A stretch of DNA of 64,000 bases from positions 40,793 through 104,792 of the forward strand of contig CAZERA010000004.1 in the NCBI GenBank assembly GCA_964514565.1, in the 5' to 3' direction. A program made the position numbers. Position 1 is the stretch's first letter, and every line of letters begins with the position of its first letter. Below, piece by piece: positions 30,001-36,000 of the stretch. The stretch comes from an uncultured Candidatus Peribacteria bacterium (GTDB lineage: Bacteria > Patescibacteriota > Gracilibacteria > RBG-16-42-10).

Positions 30001-33000
30001 GTATCACGGTTCTTCTGGTATTTCTCAGCAATATGGTAGTCAAGTGTGTGATCACTTTGGTTTTTGGTCATCGTAATATGCGCAAATTGATCTTAAGTTA
30101 CACAGCAATTGTTTTGATCATCATTCTTTTAGCTGTCTTGTTTTTGCACTGGAGTAATTTTAATGTTCAATTCTAGTTTATCAATAGTTACTTTTTCTTC
30201 ACGGTCAGCTAGCATGTTTGGTGTACTGATGCTGTCAGCAAGGGTTTCACGGGCGATATATGATCCACAAGTAGTAAGTACTTTGTGAGCAAGCTCGGTC
30301 TCACTCAGAACTTCGATATTGATGACAATGCGGCCATCTACTTGGTAGCTGGCAGCTTTGCGCATTTCTTGAATGTGTCTGACGATCTCTCGCGCATACC
30401 CCTCAGCAATCAGTTCTTCGCTAAGATTAGTATCCAAGGCTACTACGATATTACCTTCACTGAGCACACTCATGCCTGGTTCTGTCTTGTATACCACTTC
30501 AAATTCCTCAGGACTCAATGTGAATTTATCTGCGACAGTTACTGAACCATTGTCTTCAAATACAATATTTTGATCCCGCGCTGCTTGCATAATAGTTTGT
30601 ACATCATTGCCAAACTTTGGCCCAACAATTGCTGCGCGAGGTTTGATCCCTTTTTGAATAGTAGCTTGATCAGGGCTAGTCATAAACACATTTTTGACAT
30701 TGAGTTCTTCAGCAATTACTTGTAGTTCTTCGGCTTGGAGACGCATAGGAGCAATTACGGTCGCTGATGGTAGTGGTTGCCGAGTTTTTAACTTTTGATT
30801 GGCGCGAATAGCGTGACCTAGATTGACTATATTACGCATGAATGCCATCTCTTCATTGAGAGCTGGACGGACAAAACTAGTAATGCTGCGGGGGAAGCTA
30901 GCCATGTGCACAGATTTTTTGCCTACTAAGTTTCGATACATATGTTCACTGACAAAAGGGACAAAAGGAGCGATTACTTTTACTAGTGTTGTAAGGACAT
31001 GATAAAGTGTTTGATAGGCGCTGTTTTTGTCTTGATCATTTTCAGCTTTCCAGAAACGACGGCGAGATCTACGCACGTACCAGTTGGAGAGATTATCTAC
31101 AAATTGCTCGATCTTATTGGTGGCCTCCCAAATTTGGTAACCATCAAGTTGTTGTTCCACTTCTGCCACCATAGTGTGCAGCTCTGATAGAATCCAGCGA
31201 TCCAGTTTGTGTTCGCTCCATGGCATCACATAGCGATCAATGCTTCCGAGAGCGAATTTGCTTGTAAGTACTTGGTCTGATGGTGTGTGGTTGAAGTATT
31301 TATCGATCATTTTTTTGACCATGCCATTGGCAATGATCATCACTGTTTCACCTGCACATTTTTCTTTTACTTCATCTAGGAAAGAGAAGACACGTTCTTC
31401 CAGATCCAGGTATGATTCCCCTTCTGGAAATTTCTGAGAATACTGGTTGGTAAGACTGTTCAAATAGCTTTCTACATCAGCTGCTAGCTTGCCATCAAAG
31501 GTACCAAGATTGAGCTCTCTCAGTCGATCATCTTCACTGATTGTTACTTGATGAAATTGGGCAATAATGTCTGCTACCTCACGAGTGCGGGTAATTGGTG
31601 CTGCAAAGATCTTGTCGATCTTACTGTGTTTAAATTCTTGGCCAATAGCTTCAGCATCGCGATGTCCTTTTTCTGTGAGGTGATAGGTCTGGTCTTTGTC
31701 ACTTGCCACTACTCCCAGTGGGACGTTTTCTGATTCGGTGTGTTGGACACTGATTACTTTGGTAAATTTCTGTGGCTGAAATTGATCAATATTGGCGTAA
31801 GTGACAAAGAATGAATAGACATTCCATAGTGTCAGCAAAAACTTACGCAAAGATTGTTCTACTAGATTGACTGAGAAATTACGTGGTTGGCTAGGAGGTG
31901 AAGCGTGGAACATATACCAACGAAGTGCATCAGCTCCATGCTTTTCAGTCACCTCCATTGGCTCGACAATATTGCCTAGTGATTTACTCATTTTTAGTCC
32001 TTTCTCGTCCAAGATATGACCTAAACAAATGACGTTTTTATAGGGAGTTTTGTCCCAAATAGCGGTACTGACTGCGAGGAGTGTATAGAACCAGCCACGA
32101 GTTTGATCAATTGCTTCGCAAATATAATCAGCTGGGAAGTAGTTGTCATTGAAATCTTGGTCCTTGATATCAAATGGGTAGTGAACTTGAGCAATTGGCA
32201 TAGCTCCAGAATCAAACCAACAATCAATCACTTCCTCTACACGATGACTGACTCCACCACATTCACAAGGAATGGTGACAGCATCGATGTATGGCCTGTG
32301 GAGATCTCTTTCGCCTTTGTCATTGATTGGGAGATCTTGGCCACTTTTCTTTTGCAACTCGATCATCGATCCCACACACAAGGTTTTGTGACAAGAGTTG
32401 CATTCCCAGACTGGTAATGGTGTACCCCAATAACGATTGCGGGATAATGCCCAATCTTTGATTTCACTCAGCCAGTTGCCAAAGCGCCCTTCTTTGATGT
32501 GTTCAGGATGCCAGTTGATTGCTTGATTGTTTTTGATCAGTTCATCTCTCAGCTGAGACATTCGAATAAACCAAGACGTAATTGCAAAGTAAATCAGTGG
32601 TGTCTTACAACGCCAACAGTGTGGATAATTGTGTTCGTATTTTTCTTTCTTGAGCAACATATTTCTACTAGCAAGATCCTTGAGAATTTCTACATCTAGG
32701 CCTTCTTCTTTGAAATAGCGGCCACTATAGACGCCACTACCATCAATAAATTTACCTTCTTTGTTGACGTGCTGCAGTCTTGGTAAGTCATATTTTTGAA
32801 TCACCTGATAATCCTCCTCACCATAGAGAGCAATATGAACAATGCCAGTACCATCTGTAGTAGTGACAAATGGTTCAGCTACTACGTACCAGCCTTTTTT
32901 CTCGCTAGGATAATAATTCCAGGGCGCTTCATAACCTGTACCCACCAAATCTGATCCCTGGTAGGTGTTTTCTACTGTATACTGAGGTTTTCCTTCAGCA

Positions 33001-36000
33001 TCTTTGGGCAATACATCGCTATAAGCAGCCAAACGATCAGTGGCAATAATAATTGCTGTATTTTGGTCGATCCTGATCTGGCTATATTCAATTTCTGCTC
33101 CTACACAAAGAGCGAGATTTCCCAGTAATGTCCAAGGAGTAGTAGTCCAAGCAGCTAAATAAACTGTCTCACTATCCTTGCTAAATTTCGCTTGGTCGGT
33201 AATTTTAAACAAAGCAGTGAGGGACATATCTTTGACGGTCTGATATTCCTGCGCTACTTCGTGACTAGAGAGCGGTGTACCACAACGACAACAATACGGT
33301 ACTATTTTGAGATCACGGTACAACAATCCTTTTTCCCAGATTTGTTTGAGACACCACCAGACTGACTCGATATAGTCTGGTGAATAAGTGACATAAGGAT
33401 TTTTCATATCTACCCAATAACCAATTCGCTCGGTCATTTCCTCGAAAGCATGTGTGAATTTGTGTACTGAATCTTTACACTTATTATTGAAGGCCTCGAT
33501 GCCGTATTCTTCAATTTGTTTTTTACCAGAAATACCCAGTTCTTTTTCTACTTGTAACTCAACTGGTAGACCATGCGTATCCCAACCTGCTTTGCGTTCA
33601 ATATAAAAACCTTGCATTGTTTTGTAGCGCAAGATGACATCTTTGAAAACGCGTGCTAGTACGTGATGTACACCTGGTTTGCCATTGGCAGTGGGAGGAC
33701 CCTCGTAGAATACAAAGTGTTTGCCATCTTCACGCAAAGTTTGTACTTTTTGAAAAATATTTTCTTGTTGCCAGAAAGCGAGGATGTCTTTTTCTAGTTC
33801 AGGAAATGACTGTTTGACTTGTACAGGAATAAAGGTAGTACTGGCTGGATCTTGTTTCTCGGGGGTATCCATACAATGGTTTAATGGGGTTGTAAGGGGA
33901 AATTTCGTGCGGCAACTCTACCAGCTTTTCTGGGAAATAAAAAGTAAGAGGTATTAAGTAAAAACTTAGGTATTCTTAGCAGAAAGCGATTATTTTCTAT
34001 TGGTCAGGAATATCTTTGTTAAGCCCTTATCTTGTATGTTTGTTTCTGTGTCATTTTTTTGCTTTTGGGTTCTTTGCTCTTTGCTGTAGCCTCTGTTACT
34101 ATCACTCAAAATTACGTTCTTTTGTCATGGAAAATAAACCTTTTAGGCTTGTAGCTCCGTATTCTCCCACAGGTGATCAACCCAAGGCTTTAGCTGCTTT
34201 GATCAAGGGTATTGATGAGGGGAAAGTGCATCAGACTTTGCTCGGTGCTACTGGTACCGGAAAGACGTTTATTATGGCCAATATTATCAGTCAAATTCAA
34301 AAGCCTACTTTGATTTTGGCTCATAATAAGACTTTAGCTGCACAGCTTTATTCAGAGTTCAAAGAGTTTTTTCCAGACAATGCCGTCAATTACTTTGTCT
34401 CATATTACGATTATTACCAACCAGAAGCGTACATCGCCCGGTCAGATACTTATATTGAGAAAGATGCTTCAATCAATGAAGAAATCGACAAGTACCGTCA
34501 TGCTGCTACTCGCAATCTTCTGACTCGTAGAGATGTGATTATTGTGGCTTCAGTGTCATGTATTTATGGTTTAGGCTCGGTAGAAGAATATGGCAATGTA
34601 GCGGAGAAATTGAGTGTGGGTATGAGTTACAAACGTGAAAAACTTTTGCGACATTTGGCTGATCTGCAGTACAAGCGCAATGAAGTAGCGTTCGTGCGTG
34701 GTACCTTTCGGGCTCGAGGTGACGTGGTAGAGATTTATCCTACCTATAGTGATACTGCTCTCAGAGTAGCTTTCTTTGGTGATGAGATTGAGACTTTAGA
34801 TGAGTTTGATACTTTGACTGGAGAGATTGTCGGTAGTTTGCAGTCAATTGAGGTCTTTCCTGCTAAACATGCTGTCACTTCACGTGAAGCAGTTGTTCGG
34901 GCTGTAGAGCAGATCAAGTTGGATTTGGAAGAGCGTCTCAAGGAACTCAATATGATGGGGAAGATTGTGGAGGCCCAGCGTCTCAAGCAACGTACGGAGT
35001 ACGATATCGAGATGATGATAGAGACCGGATATTGTAGTGGTATAGAAAACTATACTCGTTACCTCGGGAATCGTTCGCCTGGAGAACAACCAGCAACGCT
35101 ACTCGATTATTTCCCTGATGACTACATGATGTTTATCGATGAGTCACATATCTCAGTGCCTCAGATTGGGGGAATGTTTAATGGTAATCTCGCTCGCAAG
35201 AAAAGCTTGATTGACTATGGTTTCCGTCTACCATCAGCTTATGATAATCGTCCGCTGACATTTACTGAGTTTGAAGGTCAGATCAATAAAGTAGTTTATG
35301 TTTCTGCTACTCCTCGTGAATATGAATTGGCAAAGTCTGATCATATTGTGGTTGAGCAATTGATTCGTCCTACTGGCTTGCTTGATCCGGTGATTTCAGT
35401 CCGTCCTACTCAGAACCAAGTAGATGATTTGCTCAATGAAATCAGAATGCGAATCAAGGCCGATGAGCGTGTATTGGTTACTACTCTCACTAAGCGCATG
35501 GCCGAAGATTTGACGGAATATTTGCAAGAAGCTGGGATCCGCGTGAAGTATTTGCATTCAGATATTGAAACATTAGTACGTTTGGATATTTTGCGTGATT
35601 TGCGTTTGGGTGTAATTGAAGTGGTAGTTGGTATTAACCTTTTACGTGAAGGTCTCGATTTACCTGAGGTGAGTCTAGTAGCAATCTTGGATGCTGATAA
35701 AGAAGGTTTTTTACGTTCAGAAATGGCCTTGATCCAGACTATCGGTCGTGCTGCTCGTAATGCCAATGGTCAAGTGATTATGTACGGAGATAAGATGACG
35801 GACTCGATGAAAAAAGCGATCAAAGAAACCGATCGTCGTCGTACTATTCAGGCAGCATACAACAAAGAGCATGGCATCACACCAAAGACCATTATTAAAG
35901 AGATCCGAGATATCATGCCTCATGGCGAAATTAAACAAGATGGTGAAGCTCTTCATTCTCTACCACAAGAAGAAATCGCCAAGGTCATCGCTGAGCTTGA

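What a model noticed while it worked through the whole genome (the two positions that open the first line are those of the whole stretch)
30129..33872. IleRS with an inserted histidine-phosphatase domain, catalytically decayed in this genus
The only IleRS gene (1247 aa) carries a ~180-aa His_Phos_1 (PhoE-like) domain inserted at aa 705-883, between the catalytic body and the anticodon-binding domain. IleRS of many families of the same GTDB class carry 1-3 such domains at two or three sites, with intact catalytic residues. Here the Arg of RHG is Gln and the second His is Asn.
Evidence so far: - Pfam: tRNA-synt_1 30-661, His_Phos_1 730-883 (E 1.8e-26), Anticodon_1 and DUF5915 in one ORF. - 24 of 120 listed homologues combine IleRS domains with PF00300. 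- The insert lies at our site in P0001-P0009 and at another site in the Peregrinibacteria proteins. - 40 of 61 class genomes match the insert; 34 of these matches are inside ORFs >=900 aa. - 20 of 20 fetched loci are IleRS with inserts: 10 single at site A, 2 single at site B, 4 with A and B, 3 tandem at A, 1 triple. - The catalytic R-H, R and H are kept in 29 of 29 of these domains, and E in 28 (D in 1); ours reads QHT/R/E/N. - PDB PhoE matches at E 1e-15. - It is the sole IleRS in the assembly.
(Added by a program. Inside this text positions count along the whole contig: contig position 40,793 is position 1 of the stretch shown here. "Call 12" and the like, gene names such as g00115 and contig names such as C1 are that model's own, and its searches are not shown. 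The text may have been shortened before it was handed on; [...] marks where a part breaks off. The agent that wrote the report below was given it as the finding of a first reader that could run no searches.)

Follow-up and report, generated by a model that had tools for sequence, protein, structure and literature searches.

The report
Half-disabled phosphatase domain inside IleRS
The only isoleucyl-tRNA synthetase of this tiny uncultured bacterium carries a complete phosphatase fold in one of its loops, and while relatives keep that phosphatase's active site intact, this genus has replaced half of it yet still conserves the domain.

Summary
Window 30129-33872 (- strand) is one 1247-aa ORF, the only IleRS in the assembly. 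A ~181-aa His_Phos_1 domain (residues ~706-886) is inserted in a short loop between the first two helices of the anticodon-binding bundle.

The domain folds confidently (pLDDT 93.7) and matches the PspA and PhoE phosphatases (TM 0.82-0.84). Every complete inserted copy I examined outside this family is R-H/R/E/H (41 of 41). Here it reads Q710-H711/R762/E819/N849.

Three refinements:
- The Arg is also lost (Thr) in a sister genus, and a third genus of the family is intact.
- A third pocket residue, the canonical Asn, is lost as well.
- The domain is not decaying. It has no indels, its dN/dS is about 0.02-0.1, and it evolves only 1.2-2.2 times faster than the synthetase body.

My reading is a pseudo-phosphatase kept as a selected non-catalytic module. 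No activity was assayed.

In class relatives the same domain also sits in ValRS (8), AlaRS (1) and UvrB (1). My paper searches found no description. This scan had already noted the intact form many times, and the degenerate form once in a related genome.

The parts
30129..33872 (-). ileS: a type-2 isoleucyl-tRNA synthetase of 1247 aa (P0001) and the sole IleRS of the assembly
   Evidence: Searches give the ORF. TIGR00392 scores 952.3 bits against a cut-off of 621.4. It is the only match over the cut-off in G000. The closest solved chain is IleRS 8c8w/8c8u at E 2.7e-270, with residues 17-702 matching chain residues 4-665.
31758..33872 (-). Residues 1-705: catalytic Rossmann body with the CP1 editing domain, the KMSKS loop and the first helix of the anticodon-binding bundle
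   Evidence: Pfam tRNA-synt_1 covers 30-661. The strings HHVL at 69, TTPWT at 244, GTGIVH at 341 and KMSKS at 627 are present. That these are the signature and editing motifs is recalled, not tested.
31215..31757 (-). Residues ~706-886: the inserted branch-1 histidine-phosphatase fold (His_Phos_1), with a partly replaced active site
   Evidence: PF00300 E 1.8e-26. The boundaries come from an alignment with the insert-less IleRS of G008 in the same order. The AlphaFold2 model has pLDDT 93.7 and pTM 0.89. Foldseek gives TM 0.83-0.84 to 4ij5/4ij6 and 0.82 to 1h2e.
31743..31745 (-). Codon CAA, Q710, at the place of the Arg of the RHG motif
   Evidence: The same column is R in g3, T in g2 and N in G003. 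It is R in 41 of 41 complete inserted copies outside the family.
31740..31742 (-). H711, the nucleophile His of the family, retained
   Evidence: Invariant in 47 of 47 sequences of alignment A1 and in 11 of 11 family sequences.
31722..31724 (-). V717, at the place of the canonical pocket Asn (seven residues after the Arg site)
   Evidence: In the PspA alignment this residue lies opposite the chain's Asn. The column reads V/I in G000-type sequences, N in G003 and g3, and D/E in g2.
31587..31589 (-). R762, the second catalytic Arg, retained
   Evidence: Invariant in A1 and in 11 of 11 family sequences.
31416..31418 (-). E819, the Glu of the GES motif (proton donor in the family, by recall), retained
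   Evidence: Invariant in A1 and in 11 of 11 family sequences.
31326..31328 (-). Codon AAT, N849, at the place of the second catalytic His
   Evidence: The codon is CAT (His) in g2 and g3 and CAA (Gln) in G003. AAT and CAA are each one base change away from CAT.
31233..31235 (-). R880 (the DRY triplet): an Arg present in the two genera that lost the RHG Arg, and Thr in the genus that kept it. It is a candidate compensating residue and was not tested.
   Evidence: R in 7 of 7 g1+g2 sequences and T in 4 of 4 g3 sequences. Its position relative to the pocket could not be measured.
30132..31214 (-). Residues 887-1247: the rest of the anticodon-binding helical bundle and the C-terminal DUF5915 domain
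   Evidence: Pfam Anticodon_1 891-1035 and DUF5915 1051-1240.
32259..32402 (-). Residues 491-538: the Cys hairpin (C491, C494 ... C536, C538) whose tip is the second insertion site in relatives. It is unoccupied in this gene.
   Evidence: maps the inserts of 17 other IleRS to just after P0001 residue 513. Searches give the sequence. Zinc binding is inferred from the CxxC...CxC pattern.

Best explanation
A free-standing type of small branch-1 histidine phosphatase was inserted in frame into a surface loop of IleRS in the ancestor of this family. Public records label the family Abawacabacteria. The loop lies between the first two helices of the anticodon-binding bundle.

In one genus of the family (g3) the domain still has the full catalytic set and evolves as slowly as the synthetase itself. 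In this genus three pocket residues have been replaced: the Arg of RHG (Q710), the canonical Asn (V717) and the second His (N849). These residues hold and neutralise the phosphoryl group, so the canonical phospho-histidine cycle is most likely abolished or slowed by orders of magnitude.

The domain is nevertheless kept as a folded, selected module. The likely reason is either that the sole IleRS now depends on it structurally, or that the remaining half pocket (H711, R762, E819, R827) still binds an anionic ligand without turning it over.

Shown: the insertion, the fold, the replacements and their distribution, and the purifying selection.

Inferred: the loss of activity and the reason the domain is retained.
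For: Insertion and fold. The insertion is clean, with nothing lost from the IleRS model. The model has pLDDT 93.7 and TM 0.82-0.84 to PspA and PhoE.

Residue pattern:
- QHREN in G000, G001, G002, P0002 and P0003.
- NHREQ in G003 and P0004.
- THREH in G004, G006, P0008 and P0009.
- RHREH in G005, G007, P0005-P0007, in 41 of 41 complete inserted copies outside the family, and in 10 of 10 of P0010-P0019.

Release of constraint at exactly the lost sites. Columns 710, 717 and 849 show 4, 5 and 3 states among 11 family sequences. Columns 711, 762, 819 and 827 show one state. Overall 56 of 181 columns are invariant. N849 (AAT) and G003's Q (CAA) are each one step from CAT, which suggests the His was lost twice.

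The domain is still selected. All 188 insert columns align in every family pair. G001-G002 gives dN/dS 0.024 for the insert against 0.019 for the rest. G000-G001 gives 84.0% identity for the insert against 86.2%.

Rate relative to the body. The insert/body distance ratio is 1.05-1.06 within the intact genus, 1.29 within g2 and 1.17-2.23 within this genus. That is mild relaxation, not decay.

Redundancy. Three of the four free-standing His_Phos_1 paralogues in G000 keep the full catalytic set, so phosphatase activity as such is not lost from the cell.
Against: - No enzyme assay exists, and the nucleophile His, the second Arg and the Glu are all retained, so residual or altered activity cannot be excluded.
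- R880 appears in exactly the two genera that lost the RHG Arg and could compensate.
- Synonymous sites are saturated in most pairs, so the dN/dS values are rough.
- Invariance of three retained sites is weak evidence on its own, because about a third of all columns are invariant.
- The family's inserts are acidic (net charge -8 to -12, pI 4.9-5.7), which argues against one candidate non-catalytic role, general tRNA-backbone binding.
- Nothing here shows that IleRS depends on the insert.
Confidence: 0.62

Rival explanations
1. The domain is still an active phosphatase or phosphotransferase with a remodelled pocket. H711 still takes the phosphoryl group, and other residues, for example R880 of the DRY triplet or R827, replace the lost Arg and His, possibly with a new substrate.
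For: - H711, R762 and E819 are invariant in 11 of 11 family sequences.
- R880 is Arg in 7 of 7 sequences that lost the RHG Arg and Thr in 4 of 4 that kept it.
- Purifying selection on the domain is strong.
Against: - Three pocket residues are lost, not one.
- The lost positions do not settle on one new residue: Q/N/T at 710, V/I/N/D/E at 717 and N/Q at 849. A newly optimised pocket would be expected to fix them.
- The column of R880 is variable and polar in other family members, so it is not a known pocket position.
- That the Arg and the second His belong to the catalytic core of the superfamily is established knowledge that I recall; I checked it against no paper on branch 1 here.
Confidence: 0.15
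2. The domain is a passenger with no function of its own. It landed in a tolerant loop of an essential gene, cannot be excised without a precise deletion, and is conserved only enough to fold and not poison IleRS. The catalytic residues are drifting because nothing needs them.
For: - Inserted copies are scattered among free-standing ones on the domain tree and occur at several sites and in four host proteins, which looks like opportunistic insertion.
- The UvrB copy of G017 is sister to the IleRS copy of the same genome (99/94).
- Former catalytic columns are now among the more variable ones.
Against: - In 41 of 41 complete copies outside this family the catalytic set is intact, so elsewhere the domain is used.
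- In this genus the insert still has dN/dS about 0.02-0.1, no indel in 188 columns, and three catalytic residues untouched. That is tighter than a mere folding constraint would require, although this is a judgement and not a test.
Confidence: 0.2
3. The insert or its odd residues are an assembly, binning or frame artefact.
For: The genome is a metagenome-type assembly of 7 contigs, 92.66% complete.
Against: - It is one uninterrupted frame, and the base composition in and around the insert (GC 0.40-0.44) is like the rest of the gene.
- The same architecture and the same Q...N pattern occur in independent genomes and protein clusters: G001, G002, P0002, P0003.
Confidence: 0.01

Closest known systems
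Small free-standing branch-1 histidine phosphatases: phosphoserine phosphatase PspA/iPSP1 of Hydrogenobacter thermophilus (PDB 4ij5, 4ij6) and PhoE/YhfR of Bacillus stearothermophilus (1h2e, 1ebb)
   Same: The fold and size match: TM 0.82-0.84, rmsd 2.0-2.6 A over 182-191 columns. Sequence matches are E 1.2e-15 and 9.6e-14. The nucleophile His, the second Arg and the Glu are in place.
   Different: This copy is nested inside another enzyme instead of standing alone. It lacks the RHG Arg, the canonical Asn and the second His. Identity is only 23-25%.
Type-2 (eukaryote-like) bacterial IleRS, closest solved chains 8c8w/8c8u/8c8v/8c9d and 1ile
   Same: The best chains match at E 2.7e-270 and E 1.4e-252. 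TIGR00392 scores above its cut-off, and the NCBIfam MupA/MupB-type models are the next best. The C-terminal DUF5915 domain is present.
   Different: The solved enzymes run straight through where this one carries ~181 extra residues: the match breaks at protein 702 / chain 665.
Intact His_Phos_1 inserts in IleRS and ValRS of other Patescibacteria
   Same: The inserted domain family and the host enzyme are the same. Site A of this gene is also used in G012, G013, G016, G030, G034, G046, G057 and G067.
   Different: Those copies keep R-H/R/E/H (41 of 41), and most sit at the Cys-hairpin site in the catalytic body. In this gene half the pocket is replaced and that hairpin site is empty.
NCBIfam NF040702 'isoleucine--tRNA ligase, N-acetyltransferase domain-containing' (ileS_w_GNAT)
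   Same: It is a curated case of an accessory enzyme domain built into IleRS. A GNAT-bearing IleRS that also carries His_Phos_1 occurs in class relative G016.
   Different: The inserted family and the site are different. P0001 scores 340.9 bits against a cut-off of 1999, so it is not a member.
Bifunctional RNase H / acid phosphatase (NCBIfam NF005567, PRK07238; the Rv2228c type by recall)
   Same: A CobC/PhoE-like His_Phos domain is joined to an enzyme that works on nucleic acid. The insert matches its phosphatase half at E 8.2e-14.
   Different: That protein is an end-to-end fusion, not a nested insertion. Its partner is different, and its catalytic residues are intact as far as I recall.

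Membership tests
Isoleucyl-tRNA synthetase (TIGR00392 equivalog) | Whole-protein score above the curated cut-off | tested here: met
   952.3 bits against 621.4. In the genome search it scores 953.2 bits when joined with its neighbouring piece in the frame.
Isoleucyl-tRNA synthetase (TIGR00392 equivalog) | Class I signature motifs (HIGH-type and KMSKS) and CP1 editing motifs present | tested here: met
   HHVL at 69, KMSKS at 627, TTPWT at 244 and GTGIVH at 341. That these strings are the motifs is recalled knowledge.
Isoleucyl-tRNA synthetase (TIGR00392 equivalog) | Aminoacylation of tRNA-Ile | not testable with these tools
   Inferred from its being the only IleRS found in an assembly that is 92.66% complete.
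Histidine phosphatase superfamily, branch 1 (PF00300) | Profile score above the gathering cut-off | tested here: met
   93.4 bits against 21.7, E 1.8e-26.
Histidine phosphatase superfamily, branch 1 (PF00300) | The alpha/beta fold of the family | tested here: met
   The model has pLDDT 93.7. TM is 0.82-0.84 to 4ij5, 4ij6 and 1h2e, with 305 PDB matches at E <= 0.001.
Histidine phosphatase superfamily, branch 1 (PF00300) | Nucleophile His of the RHG motif | tested here: met
   H711 is invariant in alignment A1.
Histidine phosphatase superfamily, branch 1 (PF00300) | Arg of the RHG motif | tested here: not met
   Q710, codon CAA.
Histidine phosphatase superfamily, branch 1 (PF00300) | Second catalytic His | tested here: not met
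   N849, codon AAT.
Histidine phosphatase superfamily, branch 1 (PF00300) | Second Arg and the acidic proton donor | tested here: met
   R762 and E819 are invariant.
Histidine phosphatase superfamily, branch 1 (PF00300) | Phosphomonoesterase or mutase activity | not testable with these tools
   No assay. I file it as a member by descent and fold and as a probable pseudo-enzyme.
ileS_w_GNAT (NF040702) | Score above the curated cut-off and a GNAT domain | tested here: not met
   340.9 bits against 1999. No GNAT family appears in the Pfam scan.

The most novel reading that the evidence does not exclude
The small histidine phosphatase behaves as a domain that has repeatedly jumped in frame into essential nucleic-acid enzymes of these reduced bacteria (IleRS, ValRS, AlaRS, UvrB). 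Once inside, it cannot easily be lost. In this genus it has been converted from an enzyme into a non-catalytic sensor or scaffold whose half pocket binds a phosphorylated ligand and tunes the cell's only IleRS.
Probability: 0.1. Interest if true: 0.8.

Novelty: new variant of a known kind. Interest (0 to 1): 0.55.

Why it matters
Aminoacyl-tRNA synthetases are among the best-studied enzymes. Yet a phosphatase built into IleRS, and into ValRS, AlaRS and UvrB, across a large bacterial radiation has, as far as my searches show, no published description and no known substrate.

This family offers a natural series: fully intact (g3), Arg lost (g2), and Arg, Asn and His lost (this genus). All three sit at the same site in orthologous enzymes.

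That series makes the question testable. If the domain's job is catalysis, the three forms should differ sharply in phosphatase activity while IleRS charging stays the same. If its job is structural or regulatory, deleting or mutating it should affect IleRS in all three.

It is also a clear example of an enzyme domain turning into a pseudo-enzyme while locked inside an essential host protein.

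Tried and rejected
- Complex prediction (insert against the anticodon-binding/C-terminal half, alignments A1 and A3). The queue was full, and the tool was then declared unavailable. No result.
- AlphaFold2 of the C-terminal half with the insert (alignment A2, residues 555-1247). I therefore have no model of how the insert sits on the body and no distance from R880 to H711.
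- Lead from earlier notes that the phosphatase is encoded next to ileS in relatives. I did not see this in the insert-less genomes of this class. G008, G014, G018, G032, G035, G050, G058, G065 and G070 have the two genes on different contigs, and G055 has them 98 kb apart. Fragmented assemblies limit this check.
- General tRNA-backbone binding by the insert. This is unlikely because the family's inserts are acidic.
- One loss or two of the Arg. The branching order of g1, g2 and g3 is unresolved:
  - Body tree of 27 rows: g1+g2 at 96/96.
  - Body tree of 15 rows: g1+g2 at 62/47, with g1+g3 not rejected (p-AU 0.19).
  - Domain tree of 51 rows: g1+g3 at 95/83.
  - Domain tree of 17 rows: a polytomy (p-AU 0.47).
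- dN/dS for most pairs. Synonymous sites are saturated, so I also used protein distances on a fixed topology.
- Paper searches that found nothing relevant (search listings only):
  - 'isoleucyl-tRNA synthetase' + 'histidine phosphatase': 0 papers.
  - 'tRNA synthetase' / 'candidate phyla radiation' / 'domain insertion': 95 papers with at least 2 terms, 15 listed, none on this.
  - 'aminoacyl-tRNA synthetase' + 'phosphoglycerate mutase' + 'Patescibacteria': 0 papers.
  - 'IleRS' + 'phosphatase domain' + 'insertion': 1 unrelated paper.
  - 'aminoacyl-tRNA synthetase' + 'histidine phosphatase' + 'fusion': 1 unrelated paper.
  - 'Abawacabacteria': 7 papers hold the term, 6 listed, none on IleRS by title or abstract.

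Full report
**1. The observation**

Window 30129-33872 on the minus strand is one open frame of 1247 codons.
- tRNA-synt_1 at 30-661
- His_Phos_1 at 730-883 (E 1.8e-26, 93.4 bits against a cut-off of 21.7)
- Anticodon_1 at 891-1035
- DUF5915 at 1051-1240

The NCBIfam ileS model scores 952.3 bits against a cut-off of 621.4. Its match stops at protein residue 702 (model position 685) and resumes at model position 689, so nothing of IleRS is missing and about 185 residues are extra.

The gene is the only IleRS found in the assembly of 1.12 Mb, 7 contigs, 92.66% complete. The other matches to the model lie in frames of 837 and 506 aa and stay below the cut-off. GC content in and around the insert (0.40-0.44) is like the rest of the gene.

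**2. Anatomy**

I aligned P0001 with the insert-less IleRS of G008 (same order, 1043-aa frame) and of G014 and G018. The extra piece runs from about residue 706 to 886. It sits in a short loop between the conserved helix ending in '...TYANID' and the helix beginning '...KLDRWIL'. That places it between the first two helices of the anticodon-binding bundle, after the KMSKS loop at residue 627. I call this site A.

The closest solved IleRS chains are 8c8w/8c8u (E 2.7e-270) and 1ile. They match residues 17-702 to chain residues 4-665 and then continue only after the insert.

Folded on its own with a 47-sequence alignment, the insert (residues 700-892) gives a confident model with mean pLDDT 93.7 and pTM 0.89. 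Its best structural matches are the phosphoserine phosphatase PspA (4ij6, 4ij5; TM 0.83-0.84) and PhoE (1h2e, TM 0.82). They are followed by alpha-ribazole phosphatases, TIGAR and phosphoglycerate mutases.

**3. The active site**

The alignment to PspA puts the window's 'SVQHTESENVP' opposite the chain's 'LVRHAESEWNP', and its 'IIAN' opposite 'VVSH'. In P0001 numbering the positions are as follows:

| Canonical residue | P0001 | State |
|---|---|---|
| Arg of RHG | Q710 (CAA) | replaced |
| Nucleophile His | H711 | kept |
| Pocket Asn | V717 | replaced |
| Second Arg | R762 | kept |
| Glu | E819 | kept |
| Second His | N849 (AAT) | replaced |

G001, G002 and the protein clusters P0002 and P0003 read the same. 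G003 and P0004, the most distant members of the genus, read N...Q instead of Q...N.

Within the family the pattern is graded. Genus g3 (G005, G007, P0005-P0007) has R-H/R/E/H and the Asn. Genus g2 (G004, G006, P0008, P0009) has Thr for the Arg and Asp/Glu for the Asn, but keeps the second His.

Outside the family, all 41 complete inserted copies I extracted from genomes are R-H/R/E/H. That count is 40 single hits plus one split hit in G062. The three fragments from G019 are set aside. The 10 copies in P0010-P0019 are also intact.

The Arg loss, however, is shared with a sister genus, and a third pocket residue is lost as well.

**4. Is the domain decaying?**

It is not.
- All 188 insert columns align without a gap in every pair of family genomes.
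- For the closest pair, G001-G002, dN/dS is 0.024 in the insert against 0.019 in the rest, and identity is 93.1% against 96.6%.
- For G000-G001, identity is 84.0% in the insert against 86.2% elsewhere. Synonymous sites are saturated in most pairs, so these ratios are rough.
- On a fixed topology with LG+G4, the insert/body distance ratio is 1.05-1.06 within the intact genus g3 (3 pairs), 1.29 within g2, and 1.17-2.23 within this genus.

Constraint is therefore somewhat relaxed where the pocket is broken, but it is far from neutral.

The relaxation is focused on the lost sites. Among 11 family sequences the three lost positions show 4, 5 and 3 states. H711, R762, E819 and R827 show one state. 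Overall 56 of 181 columns are invariant and 32 have four or more states.

N849 (AAT) and G003's Gln (CAA) are each one base change away from the CAT of the other genera. The second His was therefore probably lost twice within the genus.

One correlated change is unexplained. Residue 880 is Arg in all 7 sequences that lost the RHG Arg and Thr in all 4 that kept it.

**5. Distribution and history**

26 of 31 related genomes match the insert, including 7 of 7 other genomes of the family.

In an even sample of 71 genomes of the class:
- 62 have a PF00300 match.
- By my hand count of that table, 41 have one inside an open frame of at least 900 aa.
- Combining, about 47 of 71 carry the domain inside IleRS. 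Of these, 32 were verified by a Pfam scan of the fetched ORF. The other 15 were judged only from the His_Phos match lying between the two IleRS match pieces on the same contig.

I fetched and scanned 43 long ORFs. All carry PF00300: 33 are IleRS, 8 are ValRS, 1 is UvrB and 1 is AlaRS.

In IleRS there are two main sites:
- Site A, after P0001 residues 700-705: this family plus G012, G013, G016 and G030.
- The tip of a CxxC...CxC hairpin in the catalytic body, after residue 513. This site is empty in this gene.

Two proteins (G060, G062) use a third place near model position 556. Doubles and one triple also occur. The sites of the proteins were read from Pfam coordinates only.

On a tree of 51 domains the family's inserts form one clade (100/100), so there was a single insertion in the family's ancestor. 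Inserted copies as a whole are interleaved with free-standing ones, and the UvrB copy of G017 is sister to the IleRS copy of the same genome (99/94). On the tree of synthetase bodies, site A needs at least 3 changes.

The branching order of the three genera is unresolved. Whether the Arg was lost once or twice stays open.

Names attached to related proteins in public sources are 'Candidatus Abawacabacteria' and 'Candidatus Gracilibacteria'. More distant IleRS with the domain are labelled Paceibacterota or Patescibacteria. The ESM Atlas holds clusters of 53-178 IleRS pieces carrying PF00300.

**6. How it most likely works**

Established knowledge of the superfamily, which I recall and did not check in a branch-1 paper here, is this. 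The His of RHG is transiently phosphorylated. The two Arg, the second His and an Asn hold the phosphoryl group. An acidic residue donates the proton.

Replacing the RHG Arg, the Asn and the second His with uncharged residues should abolish or greatly slow that cycle. I therefore read the domain as a pseudo-phosphatase (confidence about 0.6).

It is retained under selection for one of two reasons. Either the sole IleRS has come to depend on it, or the remaining half pocket still binds an anion. Which of the two applies is not shown.

The cell does not lose phosphatase capacity, because 3 of 4 free-standing paralogues keep the full set.

The rivals are:
- A remodelled but active pocket, with R880 as a possible stand-in (0.15).
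- A functionless passenger conserved only for folding (0.2).
- An artefact (0.01).

An RNA-backbone-binding role is unlikely because the family's inserts are acidic, with net charge -8 to -12.

**7. Comparison with what is known**

The domain belongs to PF00300 by score, descent and fold, but it fails two of the defining catalytic features.

The host is a regular type-2 IleRS. NCBIfam already curates one IleRS with a built-in enzyme domain (ileS_w_GNAT), of which this protein is not a member.

My paper searches are listed under Tried and rejected. I read passages of PMC13114784, a 2026 survey of domain insertions. It names aminoacyl-tRNA synthetases as frequent hosts, but 'histidine phosphatase', 'phosphoglycerate mutase' and 'Patescibacteria' do not occur in its main text. 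I also read one passage of PMC7926622, on the branch-2 catalytic core. None of the searches returned a description of a histidine phosphatase inside an aminoacyl-tRNA synthetase. Subscription journals and supplements were not covered.

Earlier notes of this scan record the intact architecture in IleRS and ValRS of many other genomes. One note (e1-4341433) records a degenerate copy in a related genome.

**8. Verdict**

The finding is real and well described. It is a new variant of a known kind: a synthetase with an accessory domain, here an inserted enzyme turned pseudo-enzyme.

Its main value is the graded natural series within one family. Its main weakness is that neither the ancestral activity nor the present role is known.

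Limits of this work:
- No assay was done.
- The larger structure model and the complex prediction could not be obtained.
- 15 of the 47 class-level cases rest on coordinates only.
- The genus-level tree is unresolved.

Noticed in passing
L026:2675-5935:+ (G017): This UvrB of 1087 aa has His_Phos_1 (aa 437-609) and a Ser_hydrolase domain (aa 650-795) nested between its UvrB_inter and Helicase_C domains. The phosphatase copy is sister to the one in the same genome's IleRS (99/94). The UvrB in this window (34016-36109, +, 697 aa) has no insert.
   Followed up: partly
L061:2550-5798:+ (G062): This class II alanyl-tRNA synthetase of 1083 aa has an intact His_Phos_1 (aa 409-567) nested in its catalytic domain. 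The host range therefore goes beyond class I synthetases.
   Followed up: partly
L079:832-4758:+, L080:1045-4749:+, L081:449-4210:-, L069:1156-5400:-: The IleRS of four class relatives (G039, G061, G024, G046) carry an in-frame IS200-like Y1 transposase (PF01797) domain inside the CP1/editing region, at E 5e-13 to 6e-10. This is an HUH-type domain nested in a synthetase. Its catalytic residues were not examined.
   Followed up: no
L025:1639-5805:+ (G017) and L027:2638-6903:- (G016): These IleRS carry His_Phos_1 and a second accessory enzyme domain: NUDIX (aa 233-350) in G017 and GNAT (aa 637-735) in G016.
   Followed up: no
L071:1653-3677:- (G019); also G036, G059 and G069: A family with in-frame TGA codons (probably a recoded genetic code) has shortened His_Phos pieces inside IleRS. 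The G019 copy at site A keeps RH, R and the second His but lacks the loop with the Glu. This may be a second, independent kind of degeneration.
   Followed up: partly
G000:C2:48337-48789 (-), outside the window: One of the four free-standing His_Phos_1 paralogues reads V-H instead of R-H. It belongs to a well-supported clade of seven free-standing copies on the domain tree. Only this one copy was read at that column, so whether the others share V-H is not known.
   Followed up: no
window 26939-38726: ileS lies between uvrC (26939-28855, -), an MgtC/DUF4010 membrane protein gene (28902-30176, +) and uvrB (34016-36109, +), followed by alaS (36951-38726, +). The 3' ends of ileS and the MgtC-like gene overlap by 48 bases (30129-30176).
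   Followed up: no
tree: The synthetase body of this family groups with IleRS proteins labelled Paceibacterota or Patescibacteria (P0011-P0013, P0017, P0019; 100/98) and not with the IleRS of its own class. This hints at an old transfer or a deep paralogy of ileS.
   Followed up: no
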